DNA from: the human T2T-CHM13v2.0 reference genome, Homo sapiens
Length of the DNA stretch: 64,000 bases
Assembly (NCBI RefSeq): GCF_009914755.1
Contig: NC_060934.1
Direction: 5' to 3' (one strand)
Made by a program: the position numbers and the translations under genes. The notes beneath the pieces were generated by a model. The model was given only the letters and a program-made list of their open reading frames with translations. It did no database searches and was not told the DNA's origin. The number at the start of each line of letters is the position of its first letter. The first letter of the stretch is position 1. Below, piece by piece: positions 5,401-17,166 of the stretch.

Positions 5401-5739
5401 ATGTGATTTGCAGGCCCCTTCCTATTACTTCTCATGGTATGATACATACCTTTCTCTGACTAGTTCCTCTACCAAAGCTAACCATTCTATACTCCTAAAT
5501 GAAATGTGCTAGACAGAGGGTTCATCTTGTCCCCATGCCAGAACTTTATATTTATACTTTTCAGTACAAACTCTTCTTACTTGAACTCTCAGAGATTTGA
5601 AATATCTTTGTAATCAATTCCCAATACAAAGCTATTGATTATTTTATTTTTAGTTTGCTCAGAAGAACCACATAGTCTCTGTCCATTAGGAGCCTCCCCA
5701 GAGATCTCTCTGGCTGAACAGCTGTTCTCAGTGCCTGTG

Positions 5740-5870
5740 AAGTAAGTACCAATTAAGCAGGATGATTGCTTCCCTACTACAAATGGGGAAACTGCGCCAC
5801 AGAGAGGGAAAATAACTTGTACAAGATCATTTATCTATTAAATAGATGAGCTGGGACTTCAACTCATGGC
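5740..5870 (-). mobile_element. MIR
   Basis: acaaatggggaaactg...aataacttgtacaagatca...gagctgggacttcaactc. Confidence 0.75.
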
Positions 5871-6397
5871 CAATCTCCTTTTGACAATGTTCTCTAAATA
5901 GCCTTTTCCTCTCACTGCAACTCCACAATGTTTTTTATTTTCTTTTTTAAAAATACTCTGTTTCTTTATGAATCTTGCTGAAGATGGGAGAGGCATGTAC
6001 AGGTGTCCTTCAAATCTGCTTCTGCTGCCTTTCTCCTGTCCCTCTCTAGTAGGTAGTTTGAGATTTAAGCCCAGAGTGCTTTCATTACCTTCCTGCCTAC
6101 CTGCTCCACTTCCTGGGCAGGTTTCCTGCTTGGCAGCAATTCCTCCAATTGTAGCTCTTCATTCTGTTTTTAAACATTTCTCCATGCAATCTTGATTATT
6201 CTTATGGACTATGGAGGAAACACTTTTGACCCTTATGATAACCTGTGAAGTCAGTAAGCATCAGGATAAAATTGGGACCTCTTAACAGACTCCTGTACTC
6301 CAGCTGAATCTCCGGTTTGGGCTTACAATTTCTTCTCCTAATATGTTGGTGATACATGTTTTGGTAGAGAATATTATTCTCAAAAATTGCTCCATGT

Positions 6398-6751
<354 letters not shown>

Positions 6752-6848
6752 TCAAGGGATTCTGACTATTTACATCCATGGAGAGAGAATACTAGAGGCC
6801 AGTCTTAGTCTGCTCATGCTGCTATAGCAAAATACCTTAGACAGAGCA

Positions 6849-6980
6849 ATTTTTTTTATTTTTTGTAAAGATGGGGGTCTATGTTGCCCATACTGGCCTC
6901 AAACTCCTAGTCTGAAGCACTCCTCCCACCTCAGCCTCCTAAAGTACTGAAATTATAGGCATGAGCCACTGCACCCAGGC
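6849..6980 (-). mobile_element. FLAM_C / Alu left monomer
   Basis: gatgggggtctatgttgccc...ggcatgagccactgcaccc; single arm. Confidence 0.85.
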
Positions 6981-7095
6981 TTGGGTAATCTTTAAAGAAC
7001 AGCAATGTATTTTCTCACAATTCTGGAGGCGGGGAAGTTCATGATCAAGACACTGGCATCTTGGGAGGACCTTCTTGCTGCATCATCACATGTCA

Positions 7096-7519
<424 letters not shown>

Positions 7520-8167
7520 CACTCTTTACTCATGAGGGACAAGTCCTTATGGCCTAGTTACCTCCTCTTAATACCATCACACTGGCCATTATGTTTCAGC
7601 ATCTGAGTTTTGAAGGAAACACATTAAAACCAAACAGAGCCTGACCCCACATATTCCCCCCAAGTCCTGTCTTATTGTAGCCTGGTGTGACCTTTAGTGG
7701 AACCAGAAGTCTTGGTGGTCAGCCACTTGAGCCAGCTAGTGGTGCAGCATTGTGGCCAAAAGAGGGAAGATGGAGAAAAGGTTGAAGAGAAGCTGAGGAA
7801 TGAGGACTAAAGTGAGAATAAAGTAGGGGTATTCAGCAAAAAGGAGTGAAAGCAGCTGTGTAGAGCTGAGGCTTGGAGAGTTGAGAAAAGGAAAAATATT
7901 TCTGTGAATTACAAGTTGCCATTTTGAGATGTTAAACCAATACTGGAATTTCTCTTTAATTATATTTGGTTGTTAGACTGTGTTATTTTAGTGAAATGCT
8001 GTGCATAGGCTGGATCACATTAAGATGCCAGAGGTTTTTGGGTTTTTTTGTGTTTTTTTTTTTTCAGGATTTCTTTTCTTTCCTGTGATTTTGTATTTAG
8101 TTATAATACTCAGTATGCTTCTGAATAACAAATCAACACAGATCTGTGCCAAGGACTTATTTTCACC

Positions 8168-9031
8168 ATGACTGTCTGACTACTGGACACAGGATACAAG
8201 GGAGTAAGGCTAAATTAGATGTGAGTCATAATGGTTCTTGGAATATAAGTACAAAGTCAGTGGGGAGCAAGTTAAGAACTGATGCTGGCACAGCATTATG
8301 CAAAATTGCAGACTTGAAAGGAGGATAGTTTTTAATTTAAACTATATAGATCCTCATTATCCTAAGACTTCAGAGTCCTTTTAAAATGACAAGAGGAAAT
8401 CAATGCCAGACCTCCTTGGAAGGGCTTTAAGTTACTGCTACGCTGTGCCAGTGGAGGCAGGTTCCCCTAAGGACTGGGCTGTTATTGTGGAACTTCAGTG
8501 AAACAGTCATATAATCCATGGGTACAAACTTTCTTCCACCAGAAACTGAGGAAGTTCTTAGGAAGAACTAAGCCAGAGGACAGAGAAAATAACTTTGAGT
8601 CATGGTTCAAACATGCCATTAATAAGGTACTGAGATTTAACTCCTCAGTGGCTGAGAAATGCTTATGCCAAGTGTTCCCAGCCACCTAGTCATGAAGATG
8701 ATCATTGCTGTGGAGAACTGAAGCATTTCTTAGAACAAGGGTGTGGTGGCAGACAGTGCCTCGGACTCACAATACTAACTTATGACCAAGTATCAGTGGA
8801 CAGGGAAGACTTGCTACATCTAAGTTTTCAGAGAGGGAGAACTCCAACAGTGAATTCTCCATCAAGGCTGTAAAGTGATGCTTAGAGTATCAAAGCCAAA
8901 GAAAACAAGCATATAAACCAAAAAAAAAAAAAAAAAAATGCTGGAACAAAATTTTTAATCAATGGTAACCCAAAAAGATCCTGAAATTCTCCCTGCGATT
9001 GAAGTTAATCAGGGCCTGGGATGAAAGAAGG
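8168..9031 (+). pseudogene. Decayed PNMA/MOAP1-like Ty3/Gypsy gag ORF (MamGyp-type internal relic or lost domesticated gene)
   Basis: Colinear blocks MTV*LLDTGYKGVRLN*M*VIMVLGI; KGG*FLI; RLQ..SF*NDKRKSMPDLLGRALS; KLRKFLGRTKPEDRENNFESWFKH...VAEK; SQY*LMTKYQ...VFREGELQQ*ILHQG; RLKLIRAWDE. These follow the order of PNMA-family motifs; multiple stops and frameshifts. Confidence 0.8.
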
Positions 9032-9759
9032 ATTTTATGTCAGTACTTTCAGAATGAGGCAGAATAATGGCATTCTTCTTGGTGATGGCCAAGAAGACCC
9101 AGGCAGCCAGGATGATGCAGGAAGTCAGACCTCTTGAAGTCAGGCTTTCCCTCTCAAGCAAGGTTCAGGAACATTAAGGAAGCTCCCTTATCCCAACAGA
9201 GGGATAGAATCCTGGAAGCTTTTAAAACTGTAATTGAAGACTGAATTCTGGGACTTTCTTCCAATATGGTTGTGTTGCTATAATCATTCCTCTTGTATTT
9301 CATCTCCCATTGCATGATGAAACAAGCTAAATAATCACGTGCATGCTATCTGTAATTTTAGCAGTTGGAGAGAGCTCCGCCTTCAGTGAGAGCTGTGATA
9401 AATCACTGGTAACTTTCTGTTCATGAGAGGTAGGGAAATTATTCTTCGCTTCTCCAGGGTCACAAACCTTTGAGAACAGAAAATTGAAATCTTCAGCCAC
9501 CATTTTTACCTGCAGGAAACTCTCCGTTACCTAAATACACAGATTGTTAAAAAGGGCATGATAAAACATGAGAACTATGCTCTCTTGGGTTTCCATATGC
9601 TTAGCCCTAGGAGGGGCGATGAAGGGTCAGGGAAGAGGGAGTGACTATGACCTCCTGCGATCATCCCAGGATAAACCTCAGCCCTCCAATGGCAGCAGAA
9701 GTAATGAAAGTCTGACAGAGATCAAAAGAGGAAAGGGGAAACTGTTTGTGAGAAGTTGG

Positions 9760-9940
9760 AGTCTCAGGAGAGGCCTGAGCTGTCTTAAAGGATGCATAAG
9801 AGTTGTCAGAAAGAGGATACCGTGGCCAAAAGCATGAAATAAGTAGTTTGAAATTGCTAGAAATTAAAGTGTATACACGGAAATTGCAAGAGATGAATAT
9901 AGCAAGGTAAGCAAGGCCACCATTAGAGAATGTGAGATAT
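9760..9940 (-). mobile_element. L2 fragment
   Basis: gagctgtcttaaaggatg...gccaaaagcatg...aggtaagcaaggcca. Confidence 0.4.
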
Positions 9941-11399
9941 TGACCAAATATATTTGAGGGCTCCTGACCAGTGTATTGGTTAAAACTGTATTACAAGATT
10001 GATGGACACATACAAAGCATAGTGATTTATTTTGTATTGTCAAATGCACCATTCCTAGCTATTTTCATATTTCCTACTGCAATAAAAAGGCATCAGCACT
10101 GTTATAACTACACAATGTCATGGCTTTTCAGAACCTGTTTGTATGAAACACTACAGGCTTTCTTGCCTCTGATGTTCCCTAATGCCACCTATTTAATGCT
10201 GGTTACATCATTAGTCATGATTCTGCATCATTCTCATGCTGCCTGTGGATACTGGCTTCCAATGACTCTTAAAAGCTTTTACTCTGCTTACTTGATGATA
10301 ACTACAAATGTAACTCTTGCAAAAAAATGTGAAAGATAATTTTTTAGCCACAATAGATTTATCATTTAGAACGTTATGGTAGAACAACCCACCTTCCTCC
10401 CATTATTCTCTTGGACTCTTTAGGCCATTACTATGGCATTCCTAGAATGTGACTTGTGTATGCAAATTGCACACCTGTGTCCTGCACACTGCCACAGAAA
10501 GGAAATATAGGAAAGGGGGCAGGCAGGGGAAGAAGAGTAGTCTCATTTGCATAAGTAATCTTTGTCCTTCATCCAGCTCAAGACTGACCTAGGAGAACAC
10601 AATGTCACCACAGGGGTGGAGATAAGAAAGACATGGATCAGCAGGGCCTGTTGATGCTGCCATTTGTAAAAGCCTTCTGATCAGACAAGGGCAGCCACTT
10701 GTAGAGAATGAACTGACATATGCCATGGAGCCTGTGGAGGAGGTGGGATGCCAGCAGTGATAGACACACAGGGAAAAGAATATCCGCCTCCACCCCACCA
10801 CCTTCAGTTGTTATAGACCAGAGGAAGCATCACAGTCAGGACACAGATGGGTGAGAGGCAACATGGGGTTCTACATATATAACTCAAGCATCATCCATGG
10901 ACTGTCAGTAGCCCAGATCCCTGAACTCATCCTGTGTCTAACATGAGGGCAGTAACTCAAAATGAACACATCAGCATCCTTTTTGTGGCTCATTTTCATA
11001 CAATTATGCCAAAGAAGTACCATACTAGTCCTTGAGCTCCTTAGGGTACCTGTTCAACCTCATACGGGTAGTAGAGGGTTGGAGAGCACCTTGAAGAAAA
11101 GAAATATGGACCAGGGCCTACATAGGTCTCAATCTGACCTCAAAGTGCCTCATCCAGATGGTATTTCCATCCCAGTTAGTCTCAAGATTTTCATGAGGAG
11201 AATACAGAAAACTTCAAGGAAGGTGCTCTAAAACATGGTGGACCTCCTGAATCCTAAGCCTAGGTCAGGGCTCTTATTTCACCTGCACGCCACCTCTGAG
11301 ATGGAGCAGCATGGACAGTATTGAAGATAAGCTAGGGACAGCTCATGGAAGACCTTGTAATGCCATGCTCAGGAACTTAAATTCCATCTGCAACTTAGT

Positions 11400-11660
11400 A
11401 ATTCCAACATGCCTTTTCTTTAATGCAATGAATGTTATTAGGAAAAATAAAGACATTCTGGTCAAATATTAATAAGTGGGAAACATGGGACATCTCATAG
11501 CCTTTAATACATTAATCTGAATTTTAAATCTTCTAAAAGTAGATAAACTGTACATATTTGGTATAACTTTGCCTTTAAAAATAACACATGAAATCATTTA
11601 GTTGTTATGAAGTACATTCCTTAATTAGTATTCCACAGAACACACTTTGGAAAAAGCTGC
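11400..11660. mobile_element. hAT-Charlie-type MITE remnant within an L2 fragment
   Basis: Terminal ccacagaacacactttggaaaaagctg typical of MER5/Charlie ends. Confidence 0.4.
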
Positions 11661-11728
11661 AATAGACATGAGAGTCATTGCAAGGGTTTCATGCATAATA
11701 GATTTTCATTTTAGAAAAAAATGGTTTA

Positions 11729-12049
<321 letters not shown>

Positions 12050-12769
12050 TTAATGGATAGAGAAGAGAATAGGAAAGACCAAGAGAAAGGCAGTTATTGT
12101 AAGAATTAGTCAGATGATGATGAGGTCTTACCTAAGCCAGTATTAGCAGTATGTGGAAAAAAAGCACATTTCCTGGATAAATTAAGCTATATACATCTGG
12201 CTAAAAATAACTAAATGAGGAAAAGAGACATTTAATTATTTCAGGCTATTGAGTCTCCCACTACAATCAATGATAGCAAGCCCCAGAATGTATGTGAGAA
12301 TGTATTTTTGGAGTCTTAGTTATCAAGTACATTTTACTTACTGCCAACTGGCCTCTCTGAGTATGATTCTTGTATTTAAGGATTTTTACTTTTTCGTGAA
12401 ACATGGCCTTTAAACAAAAGTCAACCACTTCATTTGCACTCAATATGTTCTGTTGCTGCAGGGAAAGCTGGTCATGTTGAACTTACTGAGAGACAGTATG
12501 TCAGACTCTGATGTGATGATTTCCTAAGGTATTCTCAAGGATGCTTTTGACCATATGTAATTATTCTCCTTTGAAGATGACTTCAGCATCCACTCCCTGT
12601 GTAGGTTATAACTGTGATCCCAGGTAGGACTGATGACCGCATACTTCCCCCTTTCTCTCTAAATCTATTCACTTGATTCTCCAGCCCCGGCTACAAAAAT
12701 ATATTTGCATCCTTTTATAAGAGAGAGTTTTAATAATCTCTAGACAAAAGTAGAAGCACCATGGGCATT

Positions 12770-12930
12770 AGAAGCTGAAAGGACTGAGATTTTATGGCTT
12801 TTCTGGGAATATCAAACACCAATAAAACCAGCCCACTCAATTTTTGAATAATAAAACTGAAATTCAGAGAAAGAAACTGACCAAATCTGATCCAATATGG
12901 CAGAACTGAAAGGTAAACCCAAATCTTTAA
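12770..12930 (-). mobile_element. MIR/MIR3 fragment
   Basis: aaaactgaaattcagagaa...ggcagaactgaaaggtaaacccaaatct. Confidence 0.45.
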
Positions 12931-12991
12931 GAGGTTTTAATCTCTAGAGACTATTTATCTCTCTTAGGATACTCCAGAAAAGGCTTTTCTT

Positions 12992-13307
<316 letters not shown>

Positions 13308-14360
13308 TGAAAAGGCTTTTCTTGAAAGAGCAAACATGTGTTATGTTATTTTCTCTTAATTTCAAAGGACATGCAAACTTTAGCTGTGTGGAATTACATG
13401 GTACAAAGGCATAGAACCTTCATATGTATCTCCTATATTTTAAAATGCCTCATTTTTATCTTCTTCAATATAGAGTAATTCAATACAAACAGAAAACAGT
13501 TGCATTTTGAGAAGTTTGTAAATAATTTGATTTTCCTAGAAGTTTAACAGAAAGATTCATTCTACCTATAAATGTAAAGAAGGTTGTTCCTTACTCCATA
13601 AACACTGGCATACTCCACTTTATCACAAAATACCAGGGGCCGAGTCTTCAATATTGCAGTCCTTTGTAGCTAACCGCCTGTATGGACATTTAGTTACAGC
13701 CAAAGGTATTTGTTCTTCATTTGACTGGATGGGATCCTGAGCCCTTTTGACTATTGGCTGATGTAATTACAGAGCTCTCAACTTTCTACCACAGGAGCCC
13801 CTGATGATGCCTAAGAAGAACTACAGCAAAACATAATGGGCTATGAGTTGAAGAGGAGGGTATCCTGGTGCCTCACTGGTGATGGCTTGGCCAGCCAGGT
13901 TGACATTCCACACCACTGTTAAAGACAGGTGCCCATCAGAAGCAGCAGGCCTTCTGGGAAACTGAGGAACAACAGCTGCAGAGGCTGCAGCAGGGCAGCA
14001 GCCACAATGACACAGTGTTGTTCAAAGAGTGTGGTGATGTTGGGAGTGATAGAGGGAAGGCAGCACGAAGTGGCTTACAGGAGGGAAGTCAAAAGGGGTG
14101 GAAAGCCAAATGCTGCTGACCAAAAGCTGGTGGTGGCACTGTGGTAACGCAGCAATGCCAAGCACATCATCTGTAGCAACCTTGTGGCCCATAAAGGTGA
14201 TCTGCAGAAGAACAAGATCCCAAAGCTATTGGGTGGCAGGAGCACAAAAAAGACAAAGCTAAGTAACCAAACTTCATCTTCACCAGAAGCTTCAGACTGC
14301 AGCTAGGGCATGTTGGAGGAAATGGAAGTTAGAGAATAACAGAGCATAATCCCATCTGCC

Positions 14361-15092
14361 TTTTTTTTTTAATGGACAGATGAAATTGTATGAATTTACT
14401 GTGTACAACATGATGTTTTGAAGTATATATATATATATATATATATATGTTACAGAATGACTAAATCTAGCTAATTAACATATTCTTTACCTCATACAGT
14501 TATCATTTTTGTGGTGAGAACACTTTATATCCACTCTGTTAGAATTTTTCAAGAATGCAGTATATTATTTATTTTAGTCACCATGTTGTACAATAGATCT
14601 CTTGAACTTATTCCTCCTATCTAACTGAAATTTTGTATCCTTTGACCAAAATCTCCCCAACACCCACCAACCACCCAAGCCCCTGGCAACCACCATTTCT
14701 ACTCTCTACTTCTATGAGATCAACTTTTTAAAATTCCACATATGAATGAGATCGTGTAGTGTTTGTCATTCTATGACTGCCTTACTTCACTAAACAATGT
14801 CCTCCAGGTTCATCCATGTTGTCACAAATAACATGATATCCCTTTTATGGCTGAAGAGTATTCAATTGTGTATATGAACCCCATTTTCTTTATCCATTAA
14901 TCCATTGATGGATGTGTCTATTCACCCGTTGATTTCATATATTGACGATTGTGAATAATGCTACAATAAACATGAGAGTGCCGATATCTCTTCTATATAC
15001 TAATTAATTTCCTTGGGATATATACTCAGTAATGGGACTACTGGATCATATGGTAGTTCTGCTTTTAATCTTCTAAGAGACTTTCATACTGC
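14361..15092 (-). mobile_element. L1MA8/9 3' end, 5'-truncated, with (TA)n at ~14424-14448
   Basis: tgtacaacatgatgttttga...gtcaccatgttgtacaatagatctcttgaacttattcc. Confidence 0.85.
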
Positions 15093-15904
15093 CTGTATTT
15101 TAAAAGAAATATGTGTACATGTTTATGCATTTGCATATATATGCATGAGTGTAAGGGGGTATAGATAGATTGTATGAGCATAGGAAAACATTTGGAAGCA
15201 TATTAATCAAATTATTTACTATGATTATCTCTAGTTGAAAAAGAAGACAGGTGGAGGAGGGCACTCTCTTTTCTTAATTATACAAAAAATGGGTTGACAT
15301 CCATGGCAGTAGCAATGGATTTCACTTTTTTTTAAGTGTTTGTTTATTTCTATACATACATTTCCAAAAGTCTAACTCTGTGTTGCAGCTCCATTTAGTG
15401 GGAAGTTAGAAAAAACTTCTTCATATGCGTCATCCTTATTTTATAACTCTGCAAATGGGTATATCCTTCTGACCCTGCAGAAATATGAAGCTCAAGGGCT
15501 TCCAAGAGTGTCCCGTACTTGGGAAAGTAATATGATGAAAATATGATATTGGCTTTTTCCTTTTATTTTCATCAAAAAAGAAAAAAATATACTTGAAACA
15601 TCCTTGTAGGAAAATTGCCATTCCAGAAGATATGGGAAAACCTTGTTATTTTCGCATTCCCCATCAATCCATGCTTTTGAGGTCCTATACCAGTGGCCAT
15701 GTCTATGGATTTGGTCATGCCAAAGGACACTTCTCCAGTGTTTTTACTGCAGGAAGCCAACTGTCTTCCTTCCTATTCTGAATTGAGGAGACCTTAATAA
15801 CATGAATAGCTGAGAGGTAGCCAAAGTAGCTTTATTTATCCCTTGACTTGATGTCTCTATTCTTTTGCCCCAGATTACAGCCCAGACAAGCAAAAGAAAT
15901 GAGA

Positions 15905-17166
15905 ATAAATGGTGCTGGGAAAACTGGCTAGCCATATGTAGAAAGCTGAAACTGGATCCCTTCCTTACACTTTATACAAAAGTTAATTCAAGATGGATTA
16001 AAGACTTAAATGTTAGACCTAAAACCATAAAAACCCTAGAAGAAAACCTAAGCAATGCCATTCAGGACACAGGCATGGGCAAGGACTTCATGACTAAAAC
16101 ACCAAAAGCAATGGCAACAAAAGACAAAATTGATAAATGGGATCTAATTAAACTAAAGAGCTTCTGCACAGCGAAAGAAACTACCATCAGAGTGAACAGG
16201 CAACCTACAGAATGGGAGAAAATTTTTGCAATCTACCCATCTGACAAAGGGCTAATATCTAGAATCTACAAAGAACTCAAACAAATTTACAAGAAAAAAA
16301 AAACCCATCAAAAAGTGGGCAAAGGATATGAACAGTCACTTCTCAAAAGAAGACATCTATGCAGCCAACAGACACATGAAAAAATGCCCATCAGCACTGG
16401 CCATCAGAGAAATGCAAATCAAAACCACAATGAGATACCATCTCACGCCAGTTAGAATGGCAATCATTAAAAAGTCAGGAAACAACAGATGCTGGAAAGG
16501 ATGTCGAGAAATAGGAACACTTTTACACTGTTGGTGGGAGTGTAAATTAGTTCAACCATTGTGGAAGACAGTGTGGAGATTCCTCAAGGATCTAAAACTA
16601 GAATTACCATTTGACCCAGCCATCCCATTACTGGGTATATACCCAAAGGATTATAAATAATGCTACTATAAAGACACATGCACACATATGTTTATTGCGG
16701 CACTATTCACAATAGCAAAGACTTGGAACCAACCCAAATATCCATCAATGATAGATTGGATTAAGAAAATGTGGCACATATACACCATGGAATACTATGC
16801 AGCCATAAAAATGGATGATTTCATGTCCTTTGCAGGGACATGGATGAAGCTGGAAACCATTATTTTCAGCAAACTATCACAAGGACAGAAAACCAAACAC
16901 TGCATGTTCTTACTCATAGGTGGGAATTGAACAATGAGAACACTTGGACACAGGGCAGGAAACATCACACACCAGGGCCTGTCTGAGGGTGGGATGTTGG
17001 GGGAGGGATAGCATTAGGAGAAATACCTAATGTAATTGATGAGTTGATGGGTGCAGCAAACCAACATGGCAAATGTATACCTATGTATCAAACCTGCACG
17101 TTGTGCACATGTACCCTAGAACTTAAAAGTATAATAAAAAAAATAAAATTATAAGGCAAAAAAAGA
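15905..17166 (+). mobile_element. 5'-truncated L1PA (PA5-PA7 range)
   Basis: ORF2 C-terminal peptides ([18 protein letters not shown]...), 3'UTR, A-rich tail, 13-bp TSD aaaagaaatgaga at 15892-15904 and 17167-17179. Confidence 0.95.

What the first reader, a model, noticed from the sequence alone, without database searches (positions are those of the whole stretch)
8168..9031. Whole-length fossil of a PNMA/MOAP1-like Gypsy capsid gene
Seen, translating across stops and frameshifts: MTV*LLDTGYKGVRLN*M*VIMVLGI (8168), KYKV/VGSKLRTDAGTAL, KGG*FLI (~8317), RLQ/SF*NDKRKSMPDLLGRALS (~8365), SPKDWA, FHQKLRKFLGRTKPEDRENNFESWFKHA..SVAEK, DSQY*LMTKYQ..VFREGELQQ*ILHQG (~8765-8868), NAGT, PEIL/RLKLIRAWDE (8980-9025). 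Known (recalled): MOAP1/PNMA proteins read [106 protein letters not shown].IRE in the same order. They derive from Ty3/Gypsy gag, and some form virus-like capsids. The first TGA fits CpG decay of Arg. No pol remnant follows. Inference: either a gag-only MamGyp-type element related to the PNMA ancestor, or an unannotated lost PNMA paralogue that might be intact in other mammals.
Basis: partly seen in the sequence, partly recalled or inferred. Interest (0 to 1): 0.82.

Follow-up and report, generated by a model that had tools for sequence, protein, structure and literature searches.

The report
Decayed PNMA-type gag gene fossil

Summary
The core (8495-8659) matches the start of the PNMA capsid domain. 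All 11 intact human PNMA-family proteins hit it by tblastn, best E 3e-6. In a six-frame search of the whole genome, 6 of its 9 non-self hits are PNMA genes or a PNMA pseudogene.

A frameshift-aware, codon-decay profile alignment joins 8319-9025 into one colinear match to PNMA profile positions 111-359. It places 8168-8290 on PNMA residues 1-41. Neither flank score is reached by any of 200 dinucleotide shuffles. A reversed-profile control fails, 52.4 against 15.7.

The copy carries 13 in-frame stops and at least 4 frame changes. It lacks about 47 positions of the N-terminal domain. It is single-copy DNA.

I found no pol, zinc knuckle or LTR. At least nine similar fossils lie elsewhere in the genome.

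Verdict: an ancient gag-only relic of the MamGyp/PNMA lineage. I cannot tell a dead retroelement copy from a dead PNMA paralogue. The one related sequence from another species also looks broken. Interest is low.

The parts
8168..8290 (+). Remnant of the N-terminal PNMA_N (putative RNA-binding) domain, from the start ATG through PNMA residues 1-41. It has 5 in-frame stops (8177 TGA, 8216 TAG, 8222 TGA, 8246 TAA, 8273 TAA).
   Evidence: Codon-decay profile alignment scores 23.1 against profile 23-63. 0 of 200 shuffles and 5 of 280 null windows reach it. The reversed profile scores 9.7. tblastn places it on residues 1-26 of 4 PNMA proteins, but at E 35-176. No Pfam hit.
8291..8318 (+). Junction where about 47 profile positions (the middle of the N-terminal domain) are missing and the frame changes.
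   Evidence: The gap lies between the two alignments: profile 63 maps to 8290 and profile 111 maps to 8319.
8319..8492 (+). End of the N-terminal domain and the linker (profile 111-170). Includes RRIVFNL.., SF*NDKRKSMPDLLGRALS and SPKDWA, with a stop at 8382.
   Evidence: Part of the single colinear alignment scoring 52.4.
8495..8685 (+). Core: start of the capsid (PNMA, PF14893) domain. It lies in the 72-aa open piece 8471-8689 and is reached by a 2-base frameshift.
   Evidence: tblastn hits by 11 of 11 PNMA proteins, best E 3.3e-6. hmmsearch E 2.4e-7. Pfam PNMA E 0.03-0.04, below cut-off. Genome-wide, 6 of 9 non-self hits are PNMA loci.
8686..8998 (+). Rest of the capsid domain (profile 238-350) in a third frame, with 7 in-frame stops. 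It contains the A19 run.
   Evidence: The C-terminal test scores 23.5. 0 of 200 shuffles and 3 of 166 null windows reach it. The reversed profile scores 14.3.
8920..8938 (+). Run of 19 A inside the capsid remnant. It is not a 3' tail, because homology resumes after it.
   Evidence: Sequence. The alignment continues to 9025. P0001 carries a lysine run at the same place.
8999..9025 (+). C-terminal end of the capsid domain, LKLIRAWDE against consensus LxLIREEEAWE, after a 1-base frameshift.
   Evidence: The consensus of 10 human PNMA proteins is.

Best explanation
Window 8168-9025 (+) is a real, nearly full-length, non-functional fossil of a PNMA-type metaviral (Ty3/Gypsy, MamGyp/'Barthez' lineage) gag ORF. 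The order is N-terminal putative RNA-binding domain, linker, then two-lobed capsid domain.

Shown:
- colinear homology from the start Met to the end of the capsid domain
- 13 in-frame stops, at least 4 frame changes and one deletion of about 47 codons
- single-copy DNA
- no recognisable nucleocapsid zinc knuckle, pol or LTR

Inferred:
- A gag-bearing copy was inserted or duplicated here very early in mammalian history. The stop density is about 0.047 per codon, against roughly 0.065 expected for random sequence of this composition.
- It has decayed neutrally since and does nothing today as a protein.
- It belongs to a small class of dispersed gag-only PNMA-like relics, at least 9 others in this genome. 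RepeatMasker vocabulary would call them MamGyp-int (a recalled label, not tested).
For: - Core:.
- Whole-length colinearity: profile 111-359 to 8319-9025, score 52.4; profile 23-63 to 8168-8290, score 23.1.
- Robustness: the flank scores hold at d = 0.15, 0.3 and 0.5, and 0 of 200 or 0 of 100 shuffles reach them.
- Reversed-profile control: forward 52.4 against reversed 15.7. An Alu gives 68.1 against 66.6, which is pure composition.
- Across 158 tiles of the window, forward minus reversed is 36.7 and 20.4 for the two tiles covering the fossil. The next best is 9.0.
- Disablements are counted.
- The DNA is unique in the genome.
- No pol-type Pfam family in 70 ORF pieces of 30 aa or more on the + strand of 9000-16500 at E <= 0.1.
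- No tail or zinc knuckle: 28 of 158 null windows reach the tail score, and no CCHC pattern is found.
- Only Alus appear as direct repeats in 5500-12500.
- P0001, from another organism, keeps 'FS' where human has 'FL'. Together the two sequences match the invariant PNMA F-S-G.
- Similar fossils scored with the same method: chrX:107.84M 182.8, chrX:52.98M 109.6, chr11 95.3, chr17 67.4, chr7 66.7, chr3 62.4, chr1 57.5, chr4 53.9, chr21 53.2.
- Literature (passages read): the PNMA2 ORF is the Gag part of MamGyp-int; mammals keep only fragmented Metaviridae fossils, and PNMA comes from the Barthez lineage (PMC3670739); the RBD-CA-NC layout is ancestral in metaviruses (PMC11011659).
Against: - The Pfam PNMA match is below the gathering score (13.8-14.2 against 25 bits), and two unrelated families score alike.
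- Whole frames read through with X give no Pfam hit. The flank pieces give none either.
- Genome-wide scans with PF14893 and PF20846 did not list this locus. Only 40 and 25 candidates were scored.
- With ordinary amino-acid scoring the flanks are no better than chance.
- The support for the flanks rests on a scoring scheme of my own. It is composition-sensitive, since Alus reach 68, and it was the second scheme tried.
- Absence of pol and LTRs is weak evidence at this level of decay.
- MamGyp-int membership could not be tested, because no Dfam or Repbase library is available here.
Confidence: 0.85

Rival explanations
1. It is a dead paralogue of the already domesticated PNMA gene family, created by DNA duplication or retrocopy of a host PNMA gene. 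It served as a host gene for a time and may still be intact in some mammals.
For: - It is gag-only, like every PNMA gene, with no pol or LTR.
- Best tblastn identities are to PNMA6-type genes, 40-41% over about 40 aa.
- A T-rich tract plus CAG lies about 100 nt upstream of the ATG (8033-8066). Eight of 10 PNMA-family genes have an AG acceptor preceded by a pyrimidine-rich tract 70-128 nt upstream.
- None of 4 better-preserved fossils whose 8 kb downstream I scanned has pol either.
Against: - nhmmer with a profile of the PNMA 5'UTR and acceptor region finds nothing at 8000-8167.
- Tree placement is unresolved and sits on the longest branch, 1.95.
- P0001 shows the same locus broken in another organism, apparently sharing the frameshift near 8495.
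- Stop density is near random expectation, which leaves no sign of a late loss.
Confidence: 0.3
2. Only the core (8495-8659) is a true PNMA-like fragment. The N- and C-terminal 'matches' are chance products of reading across stops and frames.
For: - Plain amino-acid profile scoring gives non-significant flanks, and its best N-terminal hit is at a different place, 8446-8493.
- No Pfam hits for the flank pieces.
- tblastn of the N-terminus gives E 35-176.
Against:
- 0 of 200 shuffles reach either flank score.
- The reversed profile fails.
- LKLIR..AW.E at 8999-9025 matches the family's C-terminal motif.
Confidence: 0.1
3. Chance resemblance; there is no gag-derived sequence here at all.
For: The Pfam E-value is only 0.03-0.04, with unrelated families at similar E.
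Against: - 11 of 11 PNMA proteins hit the same 55 codons at the homologous position.
- In a 3.1-Gb six-frame search, 6 of 9 non-self hits are PNMA loci.
Confidence: 0.02

Closest known systems
Human PNMA family genes (PNMA1-3, PNMA5, PNMA6A/E/F, MOAP1, ZCCHC12/18)
   Same: Same domain order, with the PNMA_N domain followed by the PNMA capsid domain, and the same start and end points. The fossil is gag-only. It shows 20-24% identity over about 220 aligned codons and 20-35% in the core.
   Different: It is not an open gene: 13 stops and at least 4 frame changes. The middle of the N-terminal domain is deleted. It lies on chromosome 10, away from the family's loci seen on X, 8, 14 and 19. No conserved 5'UTR or acceptor could be detected.
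MamGyp-int, the Repbase/Dfam internal sequence of an ancient mammalian Gypsy element with MamGypLTR1/2 LTRs
   Same: In print, the PNMA2 ORF is called the Gag-derived part of a MamGyp-int element. The family is listed as the Gypsy relic of the human genome (PMC5753468). This locus is a decayed gag of that type.
   Different: No LTR or pol was seen. The hub's list of the longest masked stretches has none in 7524-11696.
Other PNMA-like fossils of this genome (chrX:107.84M, chrX:52.98M, chr11:132.39M, chr17:52.31M, chr7:117.10M, chr3:83.82M, chr1:117.35M, chr4:133.40M, chr21:21.47M)
   Same: All are broken gag-type reading frames matching the same profile. Some are near whole-length (chrX:107.84M, chr11). 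No pol family was found in the 8 kb downstream of the 4 examined in full.
   Different: The chr10 copy is among the most decayed (score 52.4, against 53-183). Its pairwise identity to the others is 8-31%. No reliable grouping was obtained.
Marsupial PNMA-MS1 and PNMA-MS2 (Iwasaki et al. 2013, PMC3789554)
   Same: They are gag-only PNMA-type insertions lacking pol and LTRs. MS2 is regarded as a pseudogene.
   Different: They lie at different loci: LAMA3 intron 8, and an olfactory-receptor cluster syntenic to human chromosome 9. They are therefore not orthologous to this chromosome 10 relic.

Membership tests
Pfam PNMA capsid domain (PF14893) | Score at or above the curated gathering cut-off (25 bits) | tested here: not met
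   13.8 bits, E 0.041. 14.2 bits, E 0.031. Only profile positions 1-35 of 161 are matched. Whole frames read with X give 0 families.
PNMA-type gag (homology, not gene status) | Colinear similarity to full-length PNMA proteins at homologous positions, above controls | tested here: met
   The flank support depends on my own codon-decay scoring.
Pfam PNMA_N (PF20846) | Recognisable N-terminal domain | tested here: inconclusive
   No Pfam hit for 8168-8290 or 8319-8441. The locus is not listed in the genome scan, in which 25 candidates were scored. The custom test is positive for residues 1-41. About 47 positions are missing.
Functional PNMA-family gene | Open reading frame across the domains | tested here: not met
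   The longest open pieces are 79, 72 and 67 aa. There are 13 in-frame stops and at least 4 frame changes.
Functional PNMA-family gene | Conserved 5'UTR with splice acceptor 70-128 nt upstream of the ATG | tested here: inconclusive
   An AG acceptor behind a pyrimidine-rich tract is seen in 8 of 10 family genes. A T-tract plus CAG is present at 8033-8066, but nhmmer with the family profile gives no hit there.
Metaviridae LTR retrotransposon (MamGyp) | Flanking LTRs | tested here: not met
   Direct repeats in 5500-12500 are Alu copies plus one A-run pair. LTRs this old could be missed by the tool.
Metaviridae LTR retrotransposon (MamGyp) | pol (protease, RT, RNase H, integrase) downstream of gag | tested here: not met
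   0 of 70 ORF pieces in 9000-16500 (+) hit a pol family at E <= 0.1. Sensitivity is low at this level of decay.
Metaviridae LTR retrotransposon (MamGyp) | Nucleocapsid CCHC zinc knuckle after the capsid domain | tested here: not met
   No CCHC pattern in 8900-10600. The tail profile score of 14.0 is reached by 28 of 158 null windows.
MamGyp-int (Repbase/Dfam) | Match to the family consensus or HMM | not testable with these tools
   No Dfam or Repbase library is on hand. The link rests on passages.

The most novel reading that the evidence does not exclude
The relic is one of a class of gag-only PNMA-type units that spread through early mammalian genomes without pol. This genome holds at least 10 such units, and none of the 4 examined in full has pol nearby. 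They would be either retrocopies of an early domesticated PNMA gene or a non-autonomous gag-only element. Under this reading the chromosome 10 copy could be an extra PNMA paralogue that is lost in primates but retained in some other lineage.
Probability: 0.1. Interest if true: 0.5.

Novelty: new member of a known kind. Interest (0 to 1): 0.2.

Why it matters
It adds one more, apparently undescribed, relic to the record of the metaviral lineage that produced the PNMA/MOAP1 capsid genes.

Gene-centred surveys would have missed it by design:
- Henriques et al. 2024 used ORFs of at least 100 codons (PMC11011659, passages).
- Iwasaki et al. 2013 used tblastn at E < 1e-9 and ORFs above 100 aa (PMC3789554, passages).

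My paper searches for 'PNMA' with 'MamGyp', and for 'PNMA' with 'Dfam', 'gag' and 'remnants', found nothing on this locus.

Dated across mammals, such relics could show when and how often PNMA-type gag copies were inserted. The relic itself has no sign of present function.

Tried and rejected
- Whole-frame read-through with X against Pfam: no hits.
- Plain amino-acid profile alignment with frameshifts: it found only the core, and the flanks were at chance level. I then moved to codon-decay scoring.
- Estimating the age from the best-fitting decay parameter: the score fell steadily with d, so it carried no information.
- Searches for closer intact relatives:
  - phmmer of the 72-aa piece against 1.84 billion representatives found only P0001.
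  - A word-indexed search for longer gag-pol proteins found none.
  - The near-length search returned only eutherian PNMA-family proteins among the 120 listed of 306.
  - As a result there was no non-mammalian outgroup, and the tree is unrooted and unresolved.
- Searching with P0001 returned only P0001 itself, without a name.
- 5'UTR and acceptor homology by nhmmer: no hit.
- LTR search by direct repeats: Alus and one A-run pair only.
- Downstream Pfam scan of other fossils: I scanned only the first 150 of 325 ORF pieces. These cover 4 loci and part of a fifth. Besides exons of a neighbouring guanylate-cyclase gene there were two weak unrelated matches (CdvA E 0.0027, Lmo2445-like_C E 0.0097); no pol family was hit.
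- PNMA-MS1/MS2 orthology: rejected from the published locations.
- Loci L021, L024 and L030 from the genome scan are Alu composition artefacts, not fossils.

Full report
**What is there**

Window 8168-9031 lies in an unannotated, gene-poor part of T2T chromosome 10. No frame is open for more than 79 codons.

**Is the core more than chance?**

I took 11 intact PNMA-family ORFs from the window's own genome, at loci found with Pfam PF14893.
- All 11 hit the same stretch, 8474-8659, in the same frame and at the homologous position, which is the start of the capsid domain. E-values run from 3.3e-6 to 2.2. The best unrelated hit in the 64-kb window has E 0.09.
- An HMM of the 11 proteins gives 18.5 bits, E 2.4e-7.
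- A six-frame search of the whole 3.1-Gb genome with the 72-aa open piece (8471-8689) returns 9 non-self hits. Six are PNMA genes or the known X-linked PNMA6-like pseudogene.
- Pfam itself is weak: PNMA at 13.8-14.2 bits (cut-off 25), with two unrelated families at similar E.
- The DNA is single-copy.

**Is it whole-length?**

With ordinary amino-acid profile scoring and frameshifts allowed, only the core aligns, and the flanks are at chance level.

Stops in a pseudogene are single-base accidents, so I rescored with a codon-decay model. A profile of 131 PNMA proteins was passed through an HKY substitution model at d = 0.3 and scored against the window's trinucleotide frequencies.
- The best local alignment then runs from profile 111 to 359 over 8319-9025, with a score of 52.4.
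- It has 233 matched codons, 8 stops, 3 frameshifts and 16 skipped positions.
- A separate test puts 8168-8290 on PNMA residues 1-41, with a score of 23.1 and 5 stops.

Controls:
- 0 of 200 dinucleotide shuffles reach either flank score. The result holds at d = 0.15 and 0.5.
- 5 of 280 (N-terminal) and 3 of 166 (C-terminal) real null windows reach them. Those windows start at or just before stretches the hub lists as masked repeats. I inspected only the top one, which is an Alu that scores by composition alone.
- A reversed profile gives 15.7 against 52.4 for the fossil, but 66.6 against 68.1 for the Alu.
- Over 158 tiles of the window, only the two tiles covering the fossil stand out.

'KYKV/VGSKL..' and 'NAGT' are not. 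About 47 positions of the N-terminal domain are missing between 8290 and 8319.

**Surroundings**

Nothing retroelement-like follows.
- No pol family in 70 ORF pieces of 9000-16500.
- No zinc knuckle or tail match.
- No LTR-like direct repeats.

All three are weak negatives at this degree of decay. The A19 run at 8920-8938 lies inside the capsid remnant, and homology resumes after it.

**Cross-species hint**

The only protein in 1.84 billion representatives that matches the 72-aa piece is P0001, an unnamed 199-aa prediction (E 9e-5, 57% identity).
- It follows the human DNA from 8371 to 8911 through three different frames at similar identity. The likeness is therefore at the nucleotide level, and I read it as an orthologous locus. 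That is an inference.
- It reads the human non-PNMA frame across 8448-8546 and then switches. I take this to mean that the frameshift near 8495 is shared and a further one is private.
- It keeps 'FS' where human has 'FL'. Together the two sequences match the invariant PNMA F-S-G.

**Context in the genome**

The same scoring finds at least nine other broken PNMA-like gag relics on X, 1, 3, 4, 7, 11, 17 and 21, with scores of 53-183. I scanned 8 kb downstream of four of them and found no pol family (150 of 325 pieces scanned). The chromosome 10 copy is among the most decayed. A FastTree of aligned columns puts it on the longest branch (1.95), next to the chr7 and chr17 relics, but with supports of only 0.24-0.28 and no outgroup. 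The placement is unresolved.

**Gene or element?**

Eight of 10 PNMA-family genes show an AG acceptor behind a pyrimidine-rich tract 70-128 nt upstream of the ATG. The fossil has a T-tract plus CAG about 100 nt upstream. A DNA profile of the family's 5' region finds nothing there, so this lead is open.

**Compared with what is known (passages read)**
- The RBD-CA-NC layout is ancestral in metaviruses. Henriques et al. scanned T2T only for ORFs of at least 100 codons and report two human pseudogenes (PMC11011659).
- The PNMA2 ORF is called the Gag part of a MamGyp-int element (bioRxiv 10.1101/2023.02.09.527862).
- MamGyp-int and its LTRs are the listed human Gypsy relics (PMC5753468).
- Mammals keep only fragmented Metaviridae fossils (PMC3670739).
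- PNMA-MS1 and MS2 lie at other loci (PMC3789554).

I could not see Dfam or RepeatMasker annotation, nor the supplements of these papers. Either might already list this locus.

**Verdict**

This is a genuine but ordinary molecular fossil of PNMA-type gag. It is gag-only as far as can be seen, and dead. Whether it died as an element copy or as a gene copy cannot be decided here.

Noticed in passing
window 8033-8066: A T-rich tract ending in CAG lies about 100 nt upstream of the fossil's ATG. Its position resembles the 5'UTR splice acceptor that most PNMA genes carry 70-128 nt upstream of their ATG. A DNA profile search gave no support for homology.
   Followed up: partly
loci L001, L002, L004, L006, L008, L009, L012 (upstream of the ATG): PNMA paralogues on X and 14 share a conserved intron end and exon start (..GGGTGGGCATTAAC..., pyrimidine-rich tract, CAG|GCTGTG..GAGACCTGGG). 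This points to DNA-level duplication of a gene that already had its 5'UTR intron.
   Followed up: partly
G000 C23:107841526-107842533 (L013/L017): A well-preserved whole-length PNMA-like pseudogene (score 182.8, about 11 frameshifts). Guanylate-cyclase exons (Pfam Guanylate_cyc, HNOBA) lie within 8 kb downstream on the same strand. It groups weakly with the chr8 gene (support 0.81).
   Followed up: partly
G000 C1:117345473-117346655 (L050); C11:132391891-132392753 (L018); C17:52309936-52310513 (L016): Further decayed PNMA-type gag relics on autosomes, some spanning both the N-terminal and capsid domains. They are not among the two human pseudogenes reported in the T2T survey passages I read.
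   Followed up: partly
window 8920-8938: An uninterrupted run of 19 A sits inside a very old relic. The unnamed protein P0001 has a lysine run at the same place. Why so pure a run persists is unexplained.
   Followed up: no
window 6397-6668, 7204-7520, 11729-12030, 12978-13315: Alu copies flank the fossil. The last one produces high, purely compositional scores with PNMA profiles on both strands.
   Followed up: yes
window 9968-10336 (+) and 15847-16452 (+): Open pieces of 123 and 202 codons with no Pfam match. The second lies in a stretch that the hub lists as masked repeat.
   Followed up: no
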